Below are positions 55,512 through 62,885 of a DNA stretch of 64,000 nt, piece by piece. Source of the DNA: an uncultured Acidobacteriota bacterium (GTDB lineage Bacteria > Acidobacteriota > UBA6911 > RPQK01). The notes under the pieces were generated by a model. The model was not told where the DNA came from. It saw only the letters and a program-made list of their open reading frames with translations, and did not search any database. The stretch is taken from assembly GCA_963744645.1 (NCBI GenBank), contig CAVUUN010000024.1, positions 36,325 to 100,324 of the forward strand, given 5' to 3'. Position numbers and translations under genes: made by a program. Within the stretch, counting starts at the first letter, position 1; each line of letters starts with the position of its first letter.

Positions 55512-56471
55512 TCAGGAGTCAAGAGGACTCTTGACTCCCCGTCCCCCTTGGTTGAGGACGTGTGTATACACCATGGTTGTTGAGACATCCTTGTGGCCGA
55601 GGAGTTCCTGCACGGTGCGGATGTCGTACCCGGATTCAAGGAGATGAGTCGCGAAACTATGACGAAGCGAATGGCAGCTTCCCGCCTTTTCGATTTTGGC
55701 CGCTCGGATAGCTTCAGCGACGGCGCGCTCGAGGGCCGAGGCTCCCACATGGTGCCGACGAACCTGGCCGCTTCTCGGGTCTGCGGATCGCTTCTTGGCC
55801 GGGAACACGTATTGCCAGACCCAGTTGCAGGAGGCGTTCGGGTATTTGCGGTCGAGCGCGTCGGGCATGAACACCTGGCCGTACCCGTCGTTGAGGTCCT
55901 GTTGGTGAAGCAACCTCACCCTTTCAAGATGTTGTTTGAGTGGATCTTCGAGACTTAAGGGCAGGACTGTGACGCGATCAATCTGGCCTTTGCCGTCGCG
56001 CACAACAATCTGGTGATACCCGAAGTCGATATCCTTGACGCGGAGTCGAAGACACTCCATCAGGCGCAGCCCCGATCCGTAGAGCAGGCTGGTCATTAGC
56101 CAGAGAGTACCCTGGAGGTTCAGGAGGATGCGGCGGACCTCATCGCGCGTGAAGACGACCGGCAATCGTTTTGGTTTTTTTGCGCGTACGAGTTGATCTA
56201 GATCGGACAGCGGGCGTTGGAGGACCTTTTCGTACAGGAAGAGTAGCGCCGCCAAAGCCTGGTTCTGGGTCGAGGCGGCCACTTTCCGGTCCACGGCCAA
56301 ATGGGTCAGAAAGGCCGAGACATCTTTTTCGGCCAACGCGGTCGGATGCCTTTTGTTGTGAAAGACGATGAACTGGCGGATCCAGGCGATGTAAGCTTGC
56401 TCGGTCCGGAGGCTGTAGTGCCGGGTACGAATGGCGTTGCGGACCTGGTCCAACAGCTTCGGCTTGTCCAT
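55512..56471 (-). CDS. intI: Integron integrase
   Basis: [27 protein letters not shown], IntI insert [33 protein letters not shown]. Confidence 0.97.
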
Positions 56472-56493
56472 AGGAAGCCCCTCGCCGTATAAT
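56464..56493 (+). promoter_or_regulatory. Candidate cassette promoter Pc
   Basis: TTGTCC-N18-TATAAT spanning the intI start and facing attI. Confidence 0.6.
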
Positions 56494-56554
56494 CTTCGAT
56501 GTCTGTCTGTAAGTCAAAGATAATGAGGATATTAATCCGAAGTCGACGGAATTA

Positions 56555-56612
56555 GTCGGCCTAATCGCCGCAATTAATCACGTCGATTAGGCCGACGAAA
56601 CACAAGTTAGGC
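56555..56612 (+). other. attI site (crossover G|TTAGGC at 56606)
   Basis: First GTTRRRY upstream of intI with no preceding attC; 13-bp inverted repeat just 5' of it. Confidence 0.75.
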
Positions 56613-56803
56613 GGCGCCGAACGCTGAGTTCCTTTGGCCTGAGGGCGGAAAGACAGCAGCCTCAGCCGGAAGCGGTTGCCAATTCGAACTCGGCCGGGGC
56701 AAGATCGAGCCGGCGCGTTCGGGTGTTCCGGGTCGCGGGTGCAAGTTGATTGCCCCCGTGTCTGTTGCTTACCAGACTAACCGGTTCGACCCAGCCAGGC
56801 GCA
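56613..56803 (+). ncRNA. ORF-less cassette 1, candidate structured RNA (type A)
   Basis: No ATG on either strand; several helices; homologous to 61696-61892. Confidence 0.55.
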
Positions 56804-56931
56804 GCCTAACCAGTCGTTGCAGCGGAGCGGCTGGGAGTCGAGCTTCAGCGGGAACGAACCGGTGATAACACGAGTGGCGGCACGGCGCGACTGCTCGGCT
56901 CCAGCCGCCCGCTGAACTTTTTACGTTAGGC
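56804..56931 (+). other. attC1 (alpha subtype)
   Basis: GCCTAAC..TTGCAGCGGA..CCGCTGAAC..GTTAGGC. Confidence 0.92.
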
Positions 56932-56987
56932 AAATTTGCGACCTATCTCTTGACGACATAAAGAGATTCCCTGTTTGGGAGTACGCA

Positions 56988-57443
56988 TTGGATGAGGAAG
57001 ATTGTGAGGGACAGGATGAAGCGACTGTCAGGCCGGTTGAGCCACAGTCTCTTGACTTGGCCCATTTCTCCTACTTCATTCGTGCCAACTTCAGATTGGC
57101 CAACGGAGTCAGCTTCTTGGGATTGGTAACAGTGTCGCGACTGTCGGATGACGGGCTGATTAGCATCGAGGGGGACGAGGATCAGAACGCGGACCGACAG
57201 CCGATCATCATCACCTCCGAAGGGCAAGTGGGTTTCTGGTTCGGAGCGAGGAAACCTAGCGAAGAGGATCTACTTCAGGCCTATTCGCTCCTCGGATCTC
57301 GTGATCCTTTGACTGTTTTCCCTATTCAGTTCAAGACCGAGATTCCGCTTTCGATTTGGGAGGTTCGTGGTGCTATTGCCGGCTTCCTCCACCTGGAAGA
57401 CAAGGAAGACGAATTGAGCTATCGAGTGCGGGTGGCAAAATGA
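56988..57443 (+). CDS. Cassette 2 hypothetical protein (start uncertain)
   Basis: ORF fills the cassette between attC1 and attC2. Confidence 0.7.
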   Translation: MDEEDCEGQDEATVRPVEPQSLDLAHFSYFIRANFRLANGVSFLGLVTVSRLSDDGLISIEGDEDQNADRQPIIITSEGQVGFWFGARKPSEEDLLQAYSLLGSRDPLTVFPIQFKTEIPLSIWEVRGAIAGFLHLEDKEDELSYRVRVAK

Positions 57444-57472
57444 TCCGGGCTCGAAGCTCGGCCCGCCCCGCC

Positions 57473-57599
57473 TCCTAACCCCGCGTTGCAGCGGAGCCGC
57501 TGGGAGCCCCGTTCGCTCCAAAAACCGAGCGGCGCGGTTAGTTTCGGTCCGACCCGTGGTATCCTCCCCAGCGGCCCGCTGAACTTATTGCCGTTAGGC
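57473..57599 (+). other. attC2 (beta subtype)
   Basis: TCCTAAC..GTTAGGC palindrome. Confidence 0.92.
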
Positions 57600-57609
57600 G
57601 GCGAGAGCC

Positions 57610-57981
57610 ATGGACATTCCGTTCACTCACATCTCGGTTGGTGGGGATTTGAGTAACCCTGATGTCCTTATTGCTTTCTCGATCTGGCTTTCGGTCGTAG
57701 CATTACTGACGGTATCGTGGCTCTGGACCATTCGACACTATTTTGGCCCGCATCGTCTGCCGAAGGGCTTCTGGCCGGGTACCCTCGTCCTGCTTGGATT
57801 GATTTCTTTGGTGTCAACCGAATGTTGCTGGCACATCGCGCTGGTTGTGCAAACCGCTAGATTCGGCAAGTACATTGACACCACGTGGTGGGGCTATCCG
57901 CCCATTTGGCCGGTTCCCGCCTCGGCCGTGTCTGTGGGCATTGTCGCGTGGTGGTTCTTCTACAGGTTAAAAGCCGCCTAA
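57610..57981 (+). CDS. Cassette 3 small three-TM membrane protein
   Basis: Stop TAA lies inside the R'' box of attC3. Confidence 0.8.
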   Translation: MDIPFTHISVGGDLSNPDVLIAFSIWLSVVALLTVSWLWTIRHYFGPHRLPKGFWPGTLVLLGLISLVSTECCWHIALVVQTARFGKYIDTTWWGYPPIWPVPASAVSVGIVAWWFFYRLKAA

Positions 57982-58103
57982 CACCGCGTTCCAGCGGAGC
58001 GGCTGGGAGTCGCGCTTCGGTGGGAACGGTCAGGTGACAATATCCTGGGTGGCACGGTGCAGCGTCTCGGCTCCAGCCGCCCGCTGAACTTTTTCCGTTA
58101 GGC
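57976..58103 (+). other. attC3 (alpha subtype)
   Basis: GCCTAAC..GTTAGGC palindrome. Confidence 0.92.
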
Positions 58104-58153
58104 GGCGGCAAGGCCCTCGGAGAACTAAGAGTGGCGAAAACAAAGGAGATCAA

Positions 58154-58620
58154 ATGCTCGGCAAGAGAATCGCGCTAGGTTTCGGCATTGCGGTTGTTTT
58201 CCCAGCCATGGTTCATTTTGGGGTAAGCACTTTTGTTCCTGCCCCAAGAGAAAGGGATTATCAGGTCGAGAGTTACTACGGACGGCACGAAAGGGCGAAC
58301 CCAGAAGAACAGAAGAGCCTGGAAGATGAAGCGCACGCGACTCGAGAAACAGAAGGAGCAGGCGCAACTGAGATTTGAAAAGTACCTCTTCTTCGTTGCT
58401 GTCCCTTTGGGTCTATTTGCCATCATTGTTGGAGCGTTTTTCCGAAGCCACACGATAGGCACGGGCCTTATGTTGGGCGGGATTTTCAGTGCCTGCGACG
58501 GTTACTGGTACTATCGATCAGAATTACCCGATGTTTCTGTGGTTCGCATCAATGGTAATCGCGTTCGTCGTGCTTCTCTTTGTTGGGTACAAAAGGATCG
58601 AAGCGACTGGCGTCTAGCAG
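58154..58620 (+). CDS. Cassette 4 membrane protein; frameshifted, end approximate
   Basis: AGGAG RBS; TM, charged coil, then TMs across 58154..58378 and 58233..58691. Confidence 0.7.
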
Positions 58621-58636
58621 GCCGCGATGCTCCCCC

Positions 58637-58762
58637 GCCTAACCCGGCGTTGCAGCGGAGCGGCCCCGGCTTCCCTCCGGCGGGAAATTAGAGGTGAAAA
58701 ATCGGTTGGTGGCTCAGCGCAACGACTCGGCCGGGCCGCCCGCTGAACTTGTGCCGTTAGGC
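58637..58762 (+). other. attC4 (gamma subtype)
   Basis: GCCTAAC..GTTAGGC palindrome. Confidence 0.92.
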
Positions 58763-58797
58763 GGCTCAAAGGTTCCGAAGGCGGGTTCTAAGCTAAT

Positions 58798-59226
58798 ATG
58801 CAGACGCTGGTCGTTCGGGTACTGACGGCAAGTGTACTTCTCCTGGAAGTTGTCGCTGGTCGCGCGGCCTGGGGAAGAGCGAACTTCCTCTGGCCCACAG
58901 ACCTGAGCAAAACTGCGACTTCTCCGAGTTCAAACCACTAAAAATCACAGCCGAGACCGAACGGATCAAGCAGGTGAGCAAACGCCGATTACCCTGAAGA
59001 CGCGAAGCAGCGAGGAATAGCAGGCCGAGTCGTAGTCAAAGTCCTCGTTGATTCAGACGGCGTAGTCCGAAGAGCCTGCGCTACCAGCGGTCACCGAATG
59101 TTGCGAAGCAGCTGAGAAGGCGGCGCTCAACTCTGCTCTTTCATCCCGTACTTTTGAACCGAAAAGAGGCTCCGCCGGTTTCTCGAGGAGACAATAATCT
59201 TCGACTTCAAACCTGCGGCCAAGTAG
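58798..59226 (+). CDS. Cassette 5: exported TonB C-terminal-domain protein; frameshifted, absent from the ORF track
   Basis: Manual translation YPEDAKQRGIAGRVVVKVLVDSDGVV...SGHRML..AAEKAAL...ETIIFDF. Confidence 0.75.
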
Positions 59227-59236
59227 CGGCCGCACC

Positions 59237-59360
59237 GCCTAACCCCGCGTTCCAGCGGAACGGCCCCGGCGCTGCGACTAGGTGACCAAGAGGTGAAAAC
59301 GCGGCTGGTGGCTCGGGGCAACTGCTCGGCTGTGGCCGCCCGCTGAACTCGACGTTAGGC
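59237..59360 (+). other. attC5 (gamma subtype)
   Basis: GCCTAAC..GTTAGGC palindrome. Confidence 0.92.
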
Positions 59361-59391
59361 GGGCGTCATCCCCGGCCGATATAGTGAAGCC

Positions 59392-59675
59392 GTGAAGCTC
59401 ACGTTCGAATGGGATTCCGAGAAGGCCAGGCAGAATTCCAGCAAGCATGGTGTCACTTTCGAAGAGGCCAGTACCGTATTTGACGACCCGCTTTCGTTGA
59501 CTGTCCCTGACCGAAGGCACTCCGTTCAGGAGCGTCGCTTTGTTATTATTGGCGATCCCAGCCCGGAAGACTGCTCGTCGTGGTTCATACCGATCGCGGT
59601 CGAACTGTTCGGTTGATAAGCGCCCGGCCTGCAACAGGACCTGAACGTAAAGAATATGAAGAAGAAACAAAGTGA
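59392..59675 (+). CDS. brnT: BrnT family toxin (cassette 6); one frameshift
   Basis: FEWDSEKARQNSSKHGVTFEEA..F.DP; LLVVVHTDRG..RLISAR. Confidence 0.9.
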
Positions 59676-59889
59676 GCCAGATCCGGACATGTTGCCGGAG
59701 TACGATTTTTCGGGCGGGGTCCGAGGAAAGTACACAAGCCGGTACCGGGAGGGAACAAACATCGTGGTCTTAGAGCCCGAAATCGCTGAGGTGTTTTCCG
59801 ACTCCCAGTCCGTGAATGATGCCCTTCGCCCGCTGGCTAACCTCATACGACGGCACCGTAAGGGTGCCAAATCGCCCGCCGCCTCCTAA
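59656..59889 (+). CDS. BrnA-like antitoxin
   Basis: DMLPEYDFSGGVRGKY..LEPEIAEVF..SVNDALR; overlaps the toxin gene. Confidence 0.85.
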   Translation: MKKKQSEPDPDMLPEYDFSGGVRGKYTSRYREGTNIVVLEPEIAEVFSDSQSVNDALRPLANLIRRHRKGAKSPAAS

Positions 59890-61298
59890 GAAACTGCAGT
59901 CGTGGCGGGGGTTCCAGAGGCGCTCCGGGGGACCAGTTCATAGCCCAAAGAGCGGGCTTTTTTCTCCAGGTATCGAATCGTTCTCTCCTGATTTTTCTTT
60001 TCGTAGTAATCCAATCGTGTCGGGTCATAGGAGCCGGGATCTGACCAGAGTCGGTAGAAAATCCGCGCCAGCTTGTGAGCGGTGGCGGTGATGGCTTCGG
60101 GGGCGCCGAATCTCGCTTTCATGCGGCGGTAGAAACAGCCGAGCGGTCCCTGGCTGTTGGAGAGGGACTGGGCGGCGAGGCGGAAGGCGCGGGCGGCGCG
60201 ATTGGCGCTGGGGCGGGTCTTGGAGCTTTTGATCTTGCCTCCGGTGATGCGGTTGTCGGGGCACAGGCAGAGCCAGGAGGTGAAGCGCTTGCAGGTGGGG
60301 AAGCGGGAGGGATCCAGTCCGATTTCGGAGATCACGGTCTGGATGGTCAGGGCGTCGAAGCCTTCGATCTGGGTGAAGTCGACGCCGGTGACGCGATACA
60401 TCTCGAGGCGCAGGTCGAAGAGGGTTTGGTTGCGCTGGGGCTTTTTGCTTTTGTTCGATCGGGTGGAGGGAGGCATGGGGACGAGGGCGGGGTCGACCCG
60501 GGAATCCATGCTCTGGAGATAGGCCTGGACCTGCTGGTCGCACTCATCGACCTTGGCGGCGTAGACATCATAAAGCTCAAGGGCCTGGCGCAGGGCGAAC
60601 AGGTGCTCGGGGCGGTAGTCGCCGACCAGGGCCTTGGCGATGGTCTCCCGGGAGGCCTTGATGCGGAAATCGCGCAGGGCGGCCAGCTGCTGCGGATCGC
60701 GCTCTCCGTTGAGAAGGGCGCGGATGATGCGCAGGCCGGTCACGCCGGTGAGGTCGCTGATCACGTGGTGGAGCTGAAGATTCATCTGGACCAGGGCTTT
60801 TTGCATGTGCTGGATGTGGGTGGCTGCGGACTGGATGAGCCGGGAGCGCTGGCGCCAGTAGGAGCGCAGGACGCAGATCTGATCGGCGGGGCGGAAGGAG
60901 GCGGCCAGCAGGCCGTAGGAGTGGAGCTCCTGCAGCCACTGGCAATCCTGGACGTCGGACTTGCGGCCGGGAAGGTTTTTGACGTGGTGGGCGTTGACCA
61001 GGCAGATGTCCAGTCCGTAGGGTTCCAGGATCTGGGCGACCGGGATCCAGTAGACCCCGGTGGATTCCATGGCCACCGAGGTGACGCCGCAGGCCACCAG
61101 CCAGCGGGCCAGGTCGTGGAGGTCCTCGGTGAAGCAGAGGAAGCGTCGGACCGGGTCGGGATCACGATCGGCGGGGACGGCCACGAACAGCTCCTCGGCG
61201 CCGATGTCGATGCCGGCGGTGTTGGGGTTGATCAGGCGTGGGGCGGCCGGGCGATTTTTGCGCGGCTTTCGAATGGATTTGGATTTAGACTTGGACAC
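59886..61298 (-). CDS. IS110 DEDD transposase/recombinase
   Basis: GIDIG, MESTGVYW, KSDVQD, EIG..RF, TATAHKLAR; GTG start with AGGAGG. Confidence 0.95.
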   Translation of the reverse strand: MSKSKSKSIRKPRKNRPAAPRLINPNTAGIDIGAEELFVAVPADRDPDPVRRFLCFTEDLHDLARWLVACGVTSVAMESTGVYWIPVAQILEPYGLDICLVNAHHVKNLPGRKSDVQDCQWLQELHSYGLLAASFRPADQICVLRSYWRQRSRLIQSAATHIQHMQKALVQMNLQLHHVISDLTGVTGLRIIRALLNGERDPQQLAALRDFRIKASRETIAKALVGDYRPEHLFALRQALELYDVYAAKVDECDQQVQAYLQSMDSRVDPALVPMPPSTRSNKSKKPQRNQTLFDLRLEMYRVTGVDFTQIEGFDALTIQTVISEIGLDPSRFPTCKRFTSWLCLCPDNRITGGKIKSSKTRPSANRAARAFRLAAQSLSNSQGPLGCFYRRMKARFGAPEAITATAHKLARIFYRLWSDPGSYDPTRLDYYEKKNQERTIRYLEKKARSLGYELVPRSASGTPATTAVS

Positions 61299-61320
61299 GG
61301 GCGGCCTCCTTTGCAAAAAG

Positions 61321-61485
61321 GCGCGCGCACGGGCCCGGGTCGGTGGATGTACGAAATCTCCTAAACGGGATCGTGTCCGGTGCACGAGACACGTCACCAG
61401 TGCGGAAACCGAAAGCCCCGGGACCAGGCTAACCGACGGGCACGAAAGCACCAATGGCGAAACGGTCTTAACTGCCCGCGCGCGG
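61321..61485 (+). ncRNA. Candidate IS110 bridge RNA, antisense to the transposase
   Basis: Two guide-ACGGG-hairpin-CACCA modules; CTCCTAA matches the target, AGGCTAA matches the donor; closing stem GCGCGC..GGG/CCC.GCGCGC. Confidence 0.7.
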
Positions 61486-61565
61486 CCGCCCAAGACCTTG
61501 CACCGAGTGGCGGGCTGGCCGCAAGTTTCTTTCAGCAGAAATGCGTCCCGAAGGGGCGTTTAAAA

Positions 61566-61695
61566 GGCTAACCCGGCGTTGCAGCGGAGCGGCCCCGGCG
61601 CTGCGACCACTGTTAATTAGTGTGGTAAAAGCATGGCTGGCGCTTCGGGGCGACTACTCGGCTGGGGCCGCCCGCTGAACTTATTGCCGTTAGGC
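61566..61695 (+). other. attC6 (gamma subtype; first bases supplied by the IS end)
   Basis: GGCTAAC..GTTAGGC palindrome. Confidence 0.9.
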
Positions 61696-61892
61696 GGCGC
61701 CGGGGATCGAGTTCGTTGCGGGGCTACGGAGCCGAAAGGCAGCAGCCAAGATCGGGAGGGTTGCTAATTCGAACTCGGTCGGGAGCAGGATCGAGCCGGG
61801 GCCGTCAGGGTGTTTCGGGTCGCGAGCGCAGGCTGGATTGCCTCCGTGTCTGGTGGTTGCCAGACGAAGCGGTTTGATTCAGCCAGGGCGCA
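61696..61892 (+). ncRNA. ORF-less cassette 7, candidate structured RNA (type A, second copy)
   Basis: Homologous to cassette 1 with structure-preserving changes. Confidence 0.55.
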
Positions 61893-62020
61893 GCCTAACA
61901 GATCGTTGCAGCGGAGCGGCTGGGAGCTAAGCTTCGGGGGGGACGGGCAGGTGACAATATCGTGGGTAGCTCGGGGCAACAGCTCGGCTCCAGCCGCCCG
62001 CTGAACTCGGGTCGTTAGGC
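61893..62020 (+). other. attC7 (alpha subtype)
   Basis: GCCTAAC..GTTAGGC palindrome. Confidence 0.92.
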
Positions 62021-62585: not shown

Positions 62586-62756
62586 TGCCAAGGGCGAAAG
62601 AGAAAGTGGGCGAAAGCAGTTGCAGCGGTGTGGGCGCAAGCGAGCCAGGGGGAAACCGGGCGAGATTCAGTCAGCGCGGTGCCCGGCCAACAACTTGCTC
62701 GCCCAGGTTGGTTGCCCGGTGCGTGGCCGATTTGCGTTCGATTGTGCACGCGGGCA
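62586..62756 (+). ncRNA. ORF-less cassette 9, candidate structured RNA (type B)
   Basis: No ATG on either strand; GGGCGCAAG/TTTGCGTTC and CCGGGCGA/TTGCCCGG helices. Confidence 0.45.
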
Positions 62757-62885
62757 GCCTAACACGTCGTTCCAGCGGAGCGGCTGGGAGTCGCGCTTCG
62801 GTGGGAACGAAGAGGTGACAGCATCGTGGGTGGCAGGGTGCAGCTACTCGGCTCCAGCCGCCCGCTGAACTCTGTGCCGTTAGGC
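62757..62885 (+). other. attC9 (alpha subtype)
   Basis: GCCTAAC..GTTAGGC palindrome. Confidence 0.92.

What the first reader, a model, noticed from the sequence alone, without database searches (positions are those of the whole stretch)
56606..61899. Two homologous ORF-less integron cassettes (56613-56803 and 61696-61892) with a conserved fold: candidate mobile structured-RNA family
Seen: cassettes 1 and 7 are ~200 bp, have no ATG on either strand and align end to end. Shared blocks include GAAAGRCAGCAGCC, GGTTGCYAATTCGAACTCGG, GATCGAGCCGG, GGGTGTTYCGGGTCGCG and CCGTGTCTG..CCAGAC. Their differences keep top-strand pairing. GAGTTC/GAACTC is extended in copy 2 to GATCGAGTTCG/CGAACTCGGTC. CGCG-GG-t-GCAA..TTGC-CC-c-CGTG becomes CGCG-AG-c-GCAG..TTGC-CT-c-CGTG, a G-C to A-U compensatory change plus A-U to G-U. 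GGGTCG/CGACCC becomes GGGTCG/TGATTC, using wobbles only. The GTCTG..CAGAC stem is kept while its loop varies. Established: ORF-less cassettes occur in Vibrio, Xanthomonas and Treponema arrays, mostly with unknown or promoter function. Inference: these encode a structured RNA read in the array direction. One copy is in the first slot, directly behind Pc/attI.
Basis: partly seen in the sequence, partly recalled or inferred. Interest (0 to 1): 0.9.

Follow-up and report, generated by a model that had tools for sequence, protein, structure and literature searches.

The report
Amplified gene-less integron cassette family
These are two of eight copies of a roughly 200-base non-coding integron cassette that has multiplied in one acidobacterial genome; the family is real, but the proposed conserved RNA fold is not supported and its function is still unknown.

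Summary
The two ORF-less cassettes exist as described and are homologous. They belong to a larger family. This genome holds 8 diverged copies in 4 cassette arrays. A same-genus genome holds 2 more, and metagenome contigs add 5 further distinct copies. Nothing was found in 135 other genomes of the class, in viral contigs or in plasmids.

The element is non-coding. It has no conserved start codon, 1-nt indels fall inside the conserved core, and no protein or Pfam relative was found. No Rfam family matches.

The claimed "conserved fold" fails on 15 copies. The consensus fold changes when sequences are added. Top-strand alignment z-scores are -0.8 to +1.0. Ten attC sites from the same window, tested the same way, show clear covariation, so the test has power here.

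What is conserved is sequence. An about 95-nt core (83% identity) follows a variable 5' part (56%). Its two best-kept windows coincide with a weak promoter-like pair, TTGCCA-18-CAAGAT. The element is the first cassette at 2 of 3 attI sites.

My best reading is a cis-regulatory, promoter-type gene-less cassette, held at low confidence. The main rivals are a selfish or neutral amplified cassette and an RNA.

The parts
55512..56471 (-). Integron integrase gene intI (319 aa)
   Evidence: ORF. Pfam Phage_int_SAM_4 (E 8.4e-33) and Phage_integrase (E 9.5e-33). It is the only full-length copy in the genome by tblastn.
56464..56493 (+). Pc-like promoter TTGTCC-18-TATAAT pointing into the array
   Evidence: 10 of 12 consensus matches, with 2 promoter-like sites found against 0.2 expected in shuffles. 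This is a consensus match only. A divergent Pint-like site lies at 56517-56489 (-).
56520..56612 (+). attI region ending in the crossover core GTTAGGC (56606-56612)
   Evidence: Sequence. Homologous attI-like stretches lie at the heads of the C14 and C22 arrays.
56606..56810 (+). Element copy 1 (first cassette), from GTTAGGC to GCCTAAC inclusive; interior 56613-56803
56619..56673 (+). Variable 5' part of copy 1
   Evidence: Mean pairwise identity is 56% over alignment columns 14-76 in 15 copies.
56674..56798 (+). Conserved core plus 3' part of copy 1 (alignment A5)
   Evidence: Core columns 77-170 are 83% identical and the 3' part is 74%.
56676..56705 (+). Weak sigma-70-like pair TTGCCA (56676-56681), 18-nt spacer, CAAGAT (56700-56705)
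   Evidence: It is the only site with at least 8 of 12 matches on either strand, and it is present in 10 of 15 copies. It coincides with the two best-conserved 10-column windows, 0.90 and 0.94. Such a site occurs in 16% of shuffles and falls below the 9-of-12 threshold.
56804..56931 (+). attC of cassette 1
   Evidence: Covariation of the attC set is shown.
61689..61899 (+). Element copy 2 (seventh cassette), from GTTAGGC to GCCTAAC inclusive; interior 61696-61892
   Evidence: It carries three 1-nt insertions in the core relative to the majority. Its promoter-like pair is weaker: TTGCTA, 19-nt spacer, CAGGAT at 61761-61791 (read).
61893..62020 (+). attC of cassette 7

Best explanation
The element is a non-coding ('gene-less') integron cassette. 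It consists of about 190 nt of interior plus its own attC. The integron integrase moves it like any other cassette, and it has been amplified to 8 diverged, partly recombinant copies in this genome. I hold that identity at about 0.9. As its most likely mode of action I commit to the following. It works in cis on transcription of the array through conserved primary sequence, not through a conserved RNA fold. Most probably the core carries a weak internal promoter (TTGCCA, 18 nt, CAAGAT, top strand) that feeds transcription into the cassettes downstream. It could also act as an untranslated spacer that changes how much Pc-driven transcription reaches them. The confidence figure refers to this mechanism. 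The shown steps are the cassette anatomy, the copy number, the lack of coding capacity, the lack of covariation and the pattern of conservation. The inferred steps are promoter activity, strand and effect on neighbours.
For: All 15 copies are bounded by the attC core sites and sit in cassette arrays. There are 8 copies in 4 of 5 arrays. This is the largest cassette family in the genome; the other repeats are 2-3 copies.

It is non-coding. No ATG, GTG or TTG start is conserved in the one frame with a weak coding-like pattern. One-nucleotide indels fall in the core in 6 of 15 copies. No protein relative was found.

Conservation is uneven: 56% in the 5' part, 83% in the core and 74% in the 3' part. 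This points to constraint on sequence. The two best-kept windows overlap the only sigma-70-like hexamer pair found on either strand.

The element is the first cassette at 2 of the 3 attI-like sites found, on C24 and C14 but not C22. About 8 of about 70 cassettes are this element. My hand binomial gives P of about 0.03.

For precedent, I read the abstract and sections 18 and 23 of PMC11014356. Most of 29 gene-less Vibrio cassettes had sense-strand promoter activity, and in-silico tools did not predict it. I read the abstract and introduction of PMC6557892, which shows promoter activity of ORF-less Treponema cassettes. [quoted passage not shown]
Against: The promoter-like pair is weak. It matches 8 of 12 positions and its -10 element begins with C. 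It is degraded in 5 of 15 copies, including window copy 2. The 9-of-12 scanner does not report it. A comparable site turns up in 16% of shuffles. I noticed its overlap with the conservation peaks after the fact.

The element is not AT-rich: 60-67% G+C against 59.9% for the genome. The published promoter cassettes come from AT-rich hosts.

The conserved core of about 95-125 nt is longer than a promoter needs. No expression data exist. Recombination among copies could create uneven similarity without selection.
Confidence: 0.38

Rival explanations
1. The element is a selfish or neutral amplified cassette. It is an empty cassette with no host function that has multiplied because the integrase excises and re-inserts it often. 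The uneven similarity then comes from recombination or gene conversion between copies. It could also come from features that help its own recombination, such as inverted repeats in single-stranded DNA or the GGCGCC/GGCGCA ends that would lengthen the attC stem in the excised circle.
For: It has the highest copy number of any cassette here. It occupies the attI-proximal slot, where new insertions land, at 2 of 3 attI sites. Tandem copies occur on C22 and in L033. The copies are mosaic: M37p is 93% like M36 in the 5' part but 98% like G1b in the core. About 45% of core columns vary and there are no long invariant runs. Folding z-scores are the same on both strands, with a slightly better consensus fold on the bottom strand, z -2.78 for columns 77-205 (1 of 150 shuffles as low). 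That fits DNA-level inverted repeats. The family is confined to one genus among those searched.
Against: The copies are old, 55-91% pairwise identity, yet all 8 keep the full core. The 27-point gap between the core and the 5' part is large for drift alone. The bottom-strand helices show 0 of 31 pairs changed on both sides. The bottom-strand z-score is one of six tests. No recombination assay exists.
Confidence: 0.3
2. The element is a structured non-coding RNA read in the array direction. It would be a mobile RNA gene or leader whose function depends on a conserved fold.
For: The top strand would be transcribed from Pc when the element is in slot 1. Inverted repeats exist, for example GGGGCAA/TTGCCCC and a CCGG..CCGG hairpin. 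The RNAalifold structure on 15 copies has 7 compensatory cells against 2.4 in shuffles (9 of 500 as high). The structure conservation index of the core is 0.71. There is precedent: an ORF-less Xanthomonas cassette encodes sRNA-Xcc1, as stated in the introduction of PMC6557892 and in passages of PMC12444791.
Against: The predicted consensus changes between 10 and 15 sequences. The structure tested was optimised on the same alignment, and the tool warns that such values arise in 5-25% of unconstrained related alignments. My helix scan found no helix with more than one covarying pair on either strand. Top-strand z-scores are -0.77, -0.46 and +1.01. There is no strand asymmetry. No Rfam hit was found in 12 copies searched. 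The attC positive control passes with fewer sequences.
Confidence: 0.13
3. The element makes an RNA that acts through primary sequence. It would be a base-pairing small RNA or antisense transcript, on either strand, without a strongly conserved fold.
For: Sequence blocks are conserved without covariation. Cassette-borne regulatory RNAs are known, as stated in the introduction of PMC6557892.
Against: No convincing complementary target was found in the genome. Apart from the 8 copies, the best BLAST matches are 15-18-nt identities at E of 0.1 or more. No intrinsic terminator is conserved inside the element. No expression data exist.
Confidence: 0.1
4. The element encodes a small protein of about 46 aa in the frame that reads ..VANSNSVGARSSRAVRVFRV.. 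through the core.
For: Substitutions in core columns 1-78 show a weak 3-base periodicity of 24/21/9 (chi-square p 0.03). In that frame pN/pS is 0.63. A stop at the same place is kept in 7 of the 9 indel-free copies.
Against: No ATG, GTG or TTG is conserved in this frame; 11 of 15 copies have none of these upstream of the core. In 7 copies the frame opens directly after a stop inside the GTTAGGC core. Frame-shifting 1-nt indels occur in 6 of 15 copies within the region. The antisense frame scores the same, pN/pS 0.65. There is no periodicity in the other two regions. No Pfam hit was found for 3 ORFs. tblastn of 24 six-frame translations against the genome gave nothing outside the 8 copies better than E 0.023.
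Confidence: 0.04

Closest known systems
Promoter-carrying gene-less cassettes of Vibrio superintegrons (Blanco et al. 2024, PMC11014356) and ORF-less promoter cassettes of oral Treponema integrons (Tansirichaiya et al. 2019, PMC6557892)
   Same: These are attC-bounded cassettes with no ORF above about 70 aa, scattered through chromosomal arrays, sometimes in the first position. Any effect would be on neighbouring cassettes.
   Different: Promoter activity has not been shown here. The host is a 60% G+C acidobacterium and the element is not AT-rich. It forms a diverged 8-copy family with a long conserved core. There is no sequence similarity to anything outside its own genus in the collections searched.
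sRNA-Xcc1 cassette of Xanthomonas integrons (known to me only through citations in PMC6557892 and PMC12444791)
   Same: It is a non-coding RNA gene carried in integron cassettes and spread between arrays and species.
   Different: According to passages of PMC12444791, sRNA-Xcc1 lies with symE in one cassette and is oriented against Pc. Here there is no partner gene and no evidence of a transcript. No Rfam family matched. I did not check whether Rfam 15 holds a model of sRNA-Xcc1.
attC recombination sites, which structured-RNA searches have picked up as 'motifs' (Weinberg et al. 2017, PMC5737381, passages read)
   Same: They are repeated non-coding sequence in cassette arrays with inverted repeats, and strand-symmetric folding suggests DNA-level structure.
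   Different: The element lacks the inner (L-box) motifs that are invariant in the 10 attC sites of the window. CAGCGG/CCGCTG is present in 0 of 15 cores, and CTGAAC/GTTCAG in 1 of 15. It lies between an R' core and an R'' core, which is the cassette side and not the site itself. It shows none of the attC-type covariation.
Claimed aminoglycoside-sensing leader RNA behind attI1 of class 1 integrons
   Same: It is a proposed structured RNA in the Pc-proximal leader of an integron array.
   Different: There is no sequence relation. That claim is disputed: I saw one supporting title and abstract in the listing (PMC7588185) and one refuting title in the reference list of PMC11014356. It is a caution, not a relative.

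Membership tests
Integron gene cassette | Bounded 5' by the crossover core GTTRRRY of the preceding site and 3' by its own attC, in an array next to attI/intI | tested here: met
   Both window copies and all other complete copies run from GTTAGGC (one GTCAGGC, one GTTAGGT) to GCCTAAC followed by an attC. intI and attI are adjacent to copy 1.
Integron gene cassette | Found at different array positions with different neighbours, which is evidence of independent mobility | tested here: met
   There are 8 copies on contigs C24, C22, C9 and C14 with different flanking cassettes. No direct excision joint for this cassette was seen in the contigs laid.
Gene-less / ORF-less cassette (criterion of PMC11014356: no ORF above 70 aa) | No ORF longer than 70 aa | tested here: met
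   The longest ORF from ATG, GTG or TTG in any of the 15 copies is 56 aa, and 45 and 53 aa in the window copies.
Promoter-carrying gene-less cassette | Measured promoter activity or a mapped transcription start | not testable with these tools
   No RNA run was listed. Only a weak consensus match exists, 8 of 12 positions in 10 of 15 copies.
Structured non-coding RNA family | Secondary structure supported by covariation above controls | tested here: not met
No helix has more than one covarying pair. Top-strand column-shuffle z is -0.77 to +1.01. The attC control passes. Power is limited to 15 sequences at 76% mean identity.
Structured non-coding RNA family | A transcript of defined strand and ends | not testable with these tools
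   No RNA holder was listed.
Any Rfam 15 family | Covariance-model match | tested here: not met
   Nothing overlaps the element at E up to 10 in the window or up to 1 in 10 loci holding other copies.
attC site | R''-L''...L'-R' architecture with conserved inner repeats | tested here: not met
   The inner motifs invariant in 10 of 10 window attC sites are absent from the cores: 0 of 15 and 1 of 15. I built no attC covariance model.
Small protein-coding cassette | Conserved start codon, preserved reading frame and codon-pattern substitutions | tested here: not met
   There is no conserved start. Frameshifts occur in 6 of 15 copies. Only a weak periodicity is seen, p 0.03, with pN/pS 0.63.

The most novel reading that the evidence does not exclude
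This may be a mobile non-coding regulatory module of integrons. It would be a cassette selected, or self-selected, for the attI-proximal slot, from which it sets the transcriptional output of the whole array as a promoter or insulator, or boosts its own recombination through DNA or RNA structure on the bottom strand. It would be the first such family described in Acidobacteriota and the first with enough diverged copies to dissect by comparison.
Probability: 0.2. Interest if true: 0.55.

Novelty: new member of a known kind. Interest (0 to 1): 0.3.

Why it matters
Gene-less cassettes make up a sizeable share of integron arrays: 13 of 63 cassettes in the oral survey cited in PMC6557892. Only in Vibrio and Treponema have they been shown to act as promoters. 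A diverged, multi-copy gene-less family in a soil or sediment acidobacterium gives a natural mutational series for a reporter assay. It could show whether regulatory cassettes are a general feature of chromosomal integrons. It could also show whether some cassettes spread selfishly. For the scan, the useful result is negative. Apparent compensatory changes between two paralogues did not survive the addition of 13 more copies.

Tried and rejected
Known RNA families. cmscan at permissive thresholds found nothing on the element. The only hits were chance-level matches elsewhere and a tRNA in L003.

Structured RNA on either strand. I tested this with RNAalifold, pair counting, my own helix scan, single-sequence z-scores, column-shuffle z-scores and the structure conservation index. 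None gave robust support. The best figure is z -2.78 for the bottom strand of columns 77-205, one of six tests, with no compensatory pair.

Coding. I tested this and rejected it.

attC-like site. I rejected this on motif grounds.

Derivation from another gene of the genome. tblastn found nothing.

Wider distribution. BLAST in 101 genomes found only the same-genus genome plus one 32-nt match at E 2.8e-4 in G100, which I take as chance. The sequence profile R1 was searched in 137 genomes of the class. The two weak extra hits (E 0.0013 and 0.0065) lie in ordinary sequence without attC cores. The pattern scans found 1 genome contig, 7 metagenome contigs and 0 viral contigs. The pattern was strict and derived from the known copies, so divergent relatives would be missed. 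Plasmids gave no match.

Expression. No RNA holder was listed.

Read laying. Contigs of four DNA runs covered the stretch only in fragments and at low depth. They showed variant letters and paired +1/-1 indels in the element region, probably from paralogous copies, and no joint that removes cassette 1 or 7.

Supplements of the papers were not consulted. Table S4 and Figures S5-S6 of PMC11014356 might refine the promoter comparison.

Full report
WHAT IS THERE. The end of the window is a chromosomal integron. A tyrosine-recombinase gene lies at 55512-56471 on the minus strand. A Pc-like promoter, TTGTCC-18-TATAAT, lies at 56464-56493 and a divergent Pint-like site lies beside it. An attI region ends in GTTAGGC at 56606-56612. 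From there an array of cassettes, separated by attC sites of about 127 nt (one of 93 nt), runs to the window end. They align end to end. BLAST gives 80% identity and E 4.3e-30. Neither has an ATG on either strand, and their longest ORFs are 45 and 53 aa.

THE FAMILY. The two copies are part of a family.
- BLAST and nhmmer each find exactly 8 copies in the genome (E 4.3e-30 or better and 1.9e-51 or better). Nothing lies between these and chance-level hits.
- The copies sit on contigs C24 (two), C22 (three, two of them adjacent), C9 (two) and C14 (one). Each runs from the GTTAGGC core to GCCTAAC plus an attC.
- A same-genus genome holds two adjacent copies separated by an attC collapsed to its two cores.
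- A pattern scan found one species-representative contig (L034), whose title names an uncultured Acidobacteriota genome. It also found 7 metagenome contigs from two related samples. After removing identical copies, these contigs add 5 new distinct copies, one of them partial.
- A sequence profile of the core found the element in 2 of 137 genomes of the class, namely this genome and its congener. Two further hits at E about 0.001-0.006 are ordinary sequence.
- Viral contigs and plasmids gave nothing.
- The genome has about 70 cassettes in five arrays. This is its largest cassette family. The other repeats are a short cassette in 3 near-identical copies on C9, a few pairs, and a toxin-antitoxin cassette carrying an insertion sequence.

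IS IT CODING? No. The one frame with any coding-like signal reads through the core, but 11 of 15 copies have no ATG, GTG or TTG upstream of the core. In 7 copies this frame opens right after a stop codon inside the GTTAGGC core. One-nucleotide indels fall inside the conserved core in 6 of 15 copies. There is a weak 3-base periodicity of substitutions in core columns 1-78 (24/21/9, p 0.03), but none in the other regions. In that frame pN/pS is 0.63, the same as the antisense frame at 0.65. Pfam found nothing for three ORFs. Six-frame translations find nothing else in the genome (best E 0.023 among 24 queries).

IS THERE A CONSERVED FOLD? This was the core of the finding, and I tested it on 15 distinct copies (alignment A4, mean pairwise identity 76%).
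They have one pair changed on both sides against 1.4 expected, and a covariation score of 0.091 against 0.091.
- Three of the 25 pairs are unpaired in 7 of 15 copies. Seven copies carry the A with an unchanged C, and only window copy 2 has the matching change.
- RNAalifold found 0 of 58 pairs with compensatory change on 10 copies. On 15 copies it gave a different structure with 3 scattered pairs of 44.
- That second structure, which was optimised on the same alignment, reaches 7 compensatory cells against 2.4 (9 of 500 shuffles). The tool's own notes say unconstrained related sequences often reach such values.
- My scan of all stacked helices found none with more than one covarying pair on either strand.
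- Column-shuffle z-scores of the consensus energy are -0.77, -0.46 and +1.01 on the top strand. They are -1.85, -2.78 and -0.67 on the bottom strand. The bottom-strand helices have 0 of 31 compensatory pairs.
- Single-sequence z-scores average -1.37 and -1.41 for the two strands. The structure conservation index is 0.59 and 0.56 for the whole element and 0.71 and 0.75 for the core. There is no strand preference.
- No Rfam family matches any of 12 copies searched.
- As a positive control, the 10 attC sites of the same window show five stacked compensatory pairs. The same counting gives 96.3% against 90.8% paired, 13 against 4.7 compensatory cells and covariation 0.157 against 0.071, each with 0 of 500 shuffles as high.

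The approach therefore detects real structure in this locus with fewer sequences. The element's inverted repeats look like properties of the shared sequence and not of a selected fold. The caveat is power: there are only 15 sequences, all from one genus.

WHAT IS CONSERVED. Similarity is strongly uneven.
- Mean pairwise identity is 56% in the 5' part (columns 14-76), 83% in the core (77-170) and 74% in the 3' part.
- The copies are mosaics. The partial copy from L037 matches the L036 copy at 93% in its 5' part, yet matches a different copy at 98% in its core.
- The two best-conserved 10-column windows (0.90 and 0.94) overlap TTGCCA and CAAGAT, which lie 18 nt apart on the top strand. This is the only hexamer pair on either strand reaching 8 of 12 consensus positions with the key A and T of the -10 element. 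It is present in 10 of 15 copies.
- This evidence is weak. The standard scan, which needs 9 of 12 positions, does not report the pair. In 16% of shuffles a comparable site appears. Five copies, including window copy 2, have poorer versions. The element is as G+C-rich as the genome or richer (60-67% against 59.9%).

CONTEXT. Only one intact intI exists in the genome. attI-like sequences homologous to the window's attI head the C14 and C22 arrays. In both, intI has been lost or reduced to a few codons. The element is the first cassette at 2 of these 3 sites. Given a frequency of about 11% among cassettes, my hand calculation puts that at P of about 0.03. This fits frequent re-insertion, because new cassettes enter at attI. 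It also fits selection for the Pc-proximal position. It does not tell the two apart.

INTERPRETATION. Three papers frame the reading. In Vibrio, most of 29 gene-less cassettes carry sense-strand promoters, and in-silico prediction did not identify them (PMC11014356, abstract and sections 18 and 23). ORF-less Treponema cassettes act as promoters (PMC6557892, abstract and introduction). The identity and translation of the first cassette set the expression of those downstream (PMC11511950, passages).

On this background, and given sequence-level conservation without covariation, I commit to a cis-acting transcriptional role as the single most likely mechanism, at about 0.38. Most probably this is a weak internal promoter. 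A selfish or neutral amplified cassette comes next at about 0.30. A small protein is at about 0.04. None of these can be settled without expression or reporter data. No RNA run was listed, and the contigs of four DNA runs were too fragmentary to show cassette movement.

VERDICT. The interpretation as a conserved-fold RNA family is not supported. The element is a new, genus-restricted member of a known kind, the gene-less integron cassette. It is of moderate interest, mainly as a ready-made comparative series for testing what gene-less cassettes do outside Vibrio and Treponema.

Noticed in passing
window 59889-61565: An IS110-family transposase gene lies at 59889-61301 on the minus strand (Pfam DEDD_Tnp_IS110 and Transposase_20). 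It sits in an element inserted into the R'' end of an attC. About 265 nt of non-coding sequence lie upstream of the gene. From recall, IS110 elements encode their guide ('bridge') RNA in that position. No Rfam hit was found there. The same element end precedes the element copy in L003, and near-identical copies (95-97%) lie in the C14 and C9 arrays.
   Followed up: partly
window 59392-59889: A two-gene cassette has a BrnT-type toxin domain in the first ORF (E 5.3e-16) and a 77-aa partner with no Pfam match. The whole cassette plus the insertion sequence is duplicated on C14 at 95.9% identity over 2203 nt.
   Followed up: partly
window 62586-62764: A second, unrelated ORF-less cassette of about 180 nt is rich in GAAAG/GCGAAAG repeats. 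It has no Rfam hit and no other copy among the parsed cassettes of the genome.
   Followed up: partly
G000 contigs C14 (about 986.7 kb) and C22 (about 658.8-659.0 kb): Two further attI-like platforms are homologous to the window's attI but lack an intact intI. The C14 one abuts a membrane-transporter-like ORF. The C22 one keeps a Pc-like TTGTCC..TATAAT and only the first codons of intI. One integrase may therefore serve at least five arrays.
   Followed up: partly
L033 1632-1650: Between two tandem copies of the element in the same-genus genome, the attC is reduced to its two core sites with 5 nt between them. This looks like a deletion of the whole inner part of the site.
   Followed up: no
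G000 contig C9, parsed cassettes 18, 29 and part of 22: Another short cassette of about 150 nt interior is present in three nearly identical copies (96-99%) within one array. Its coding status was not examined.
   Followed up: no
L003 2695-2781: A tRNA gene (Rfam RF00005, 60 bits) lies a few hundred bases beyond the last attC detected in the C22 array.
   Followed up: no
window 58104-59360: Cassettes 4 and 5 have overlapping or short ORFs only (58154-58378 and 58233-58691; 58798-58941). This suggests frameshifted or decayed genes.
   Followed up: no
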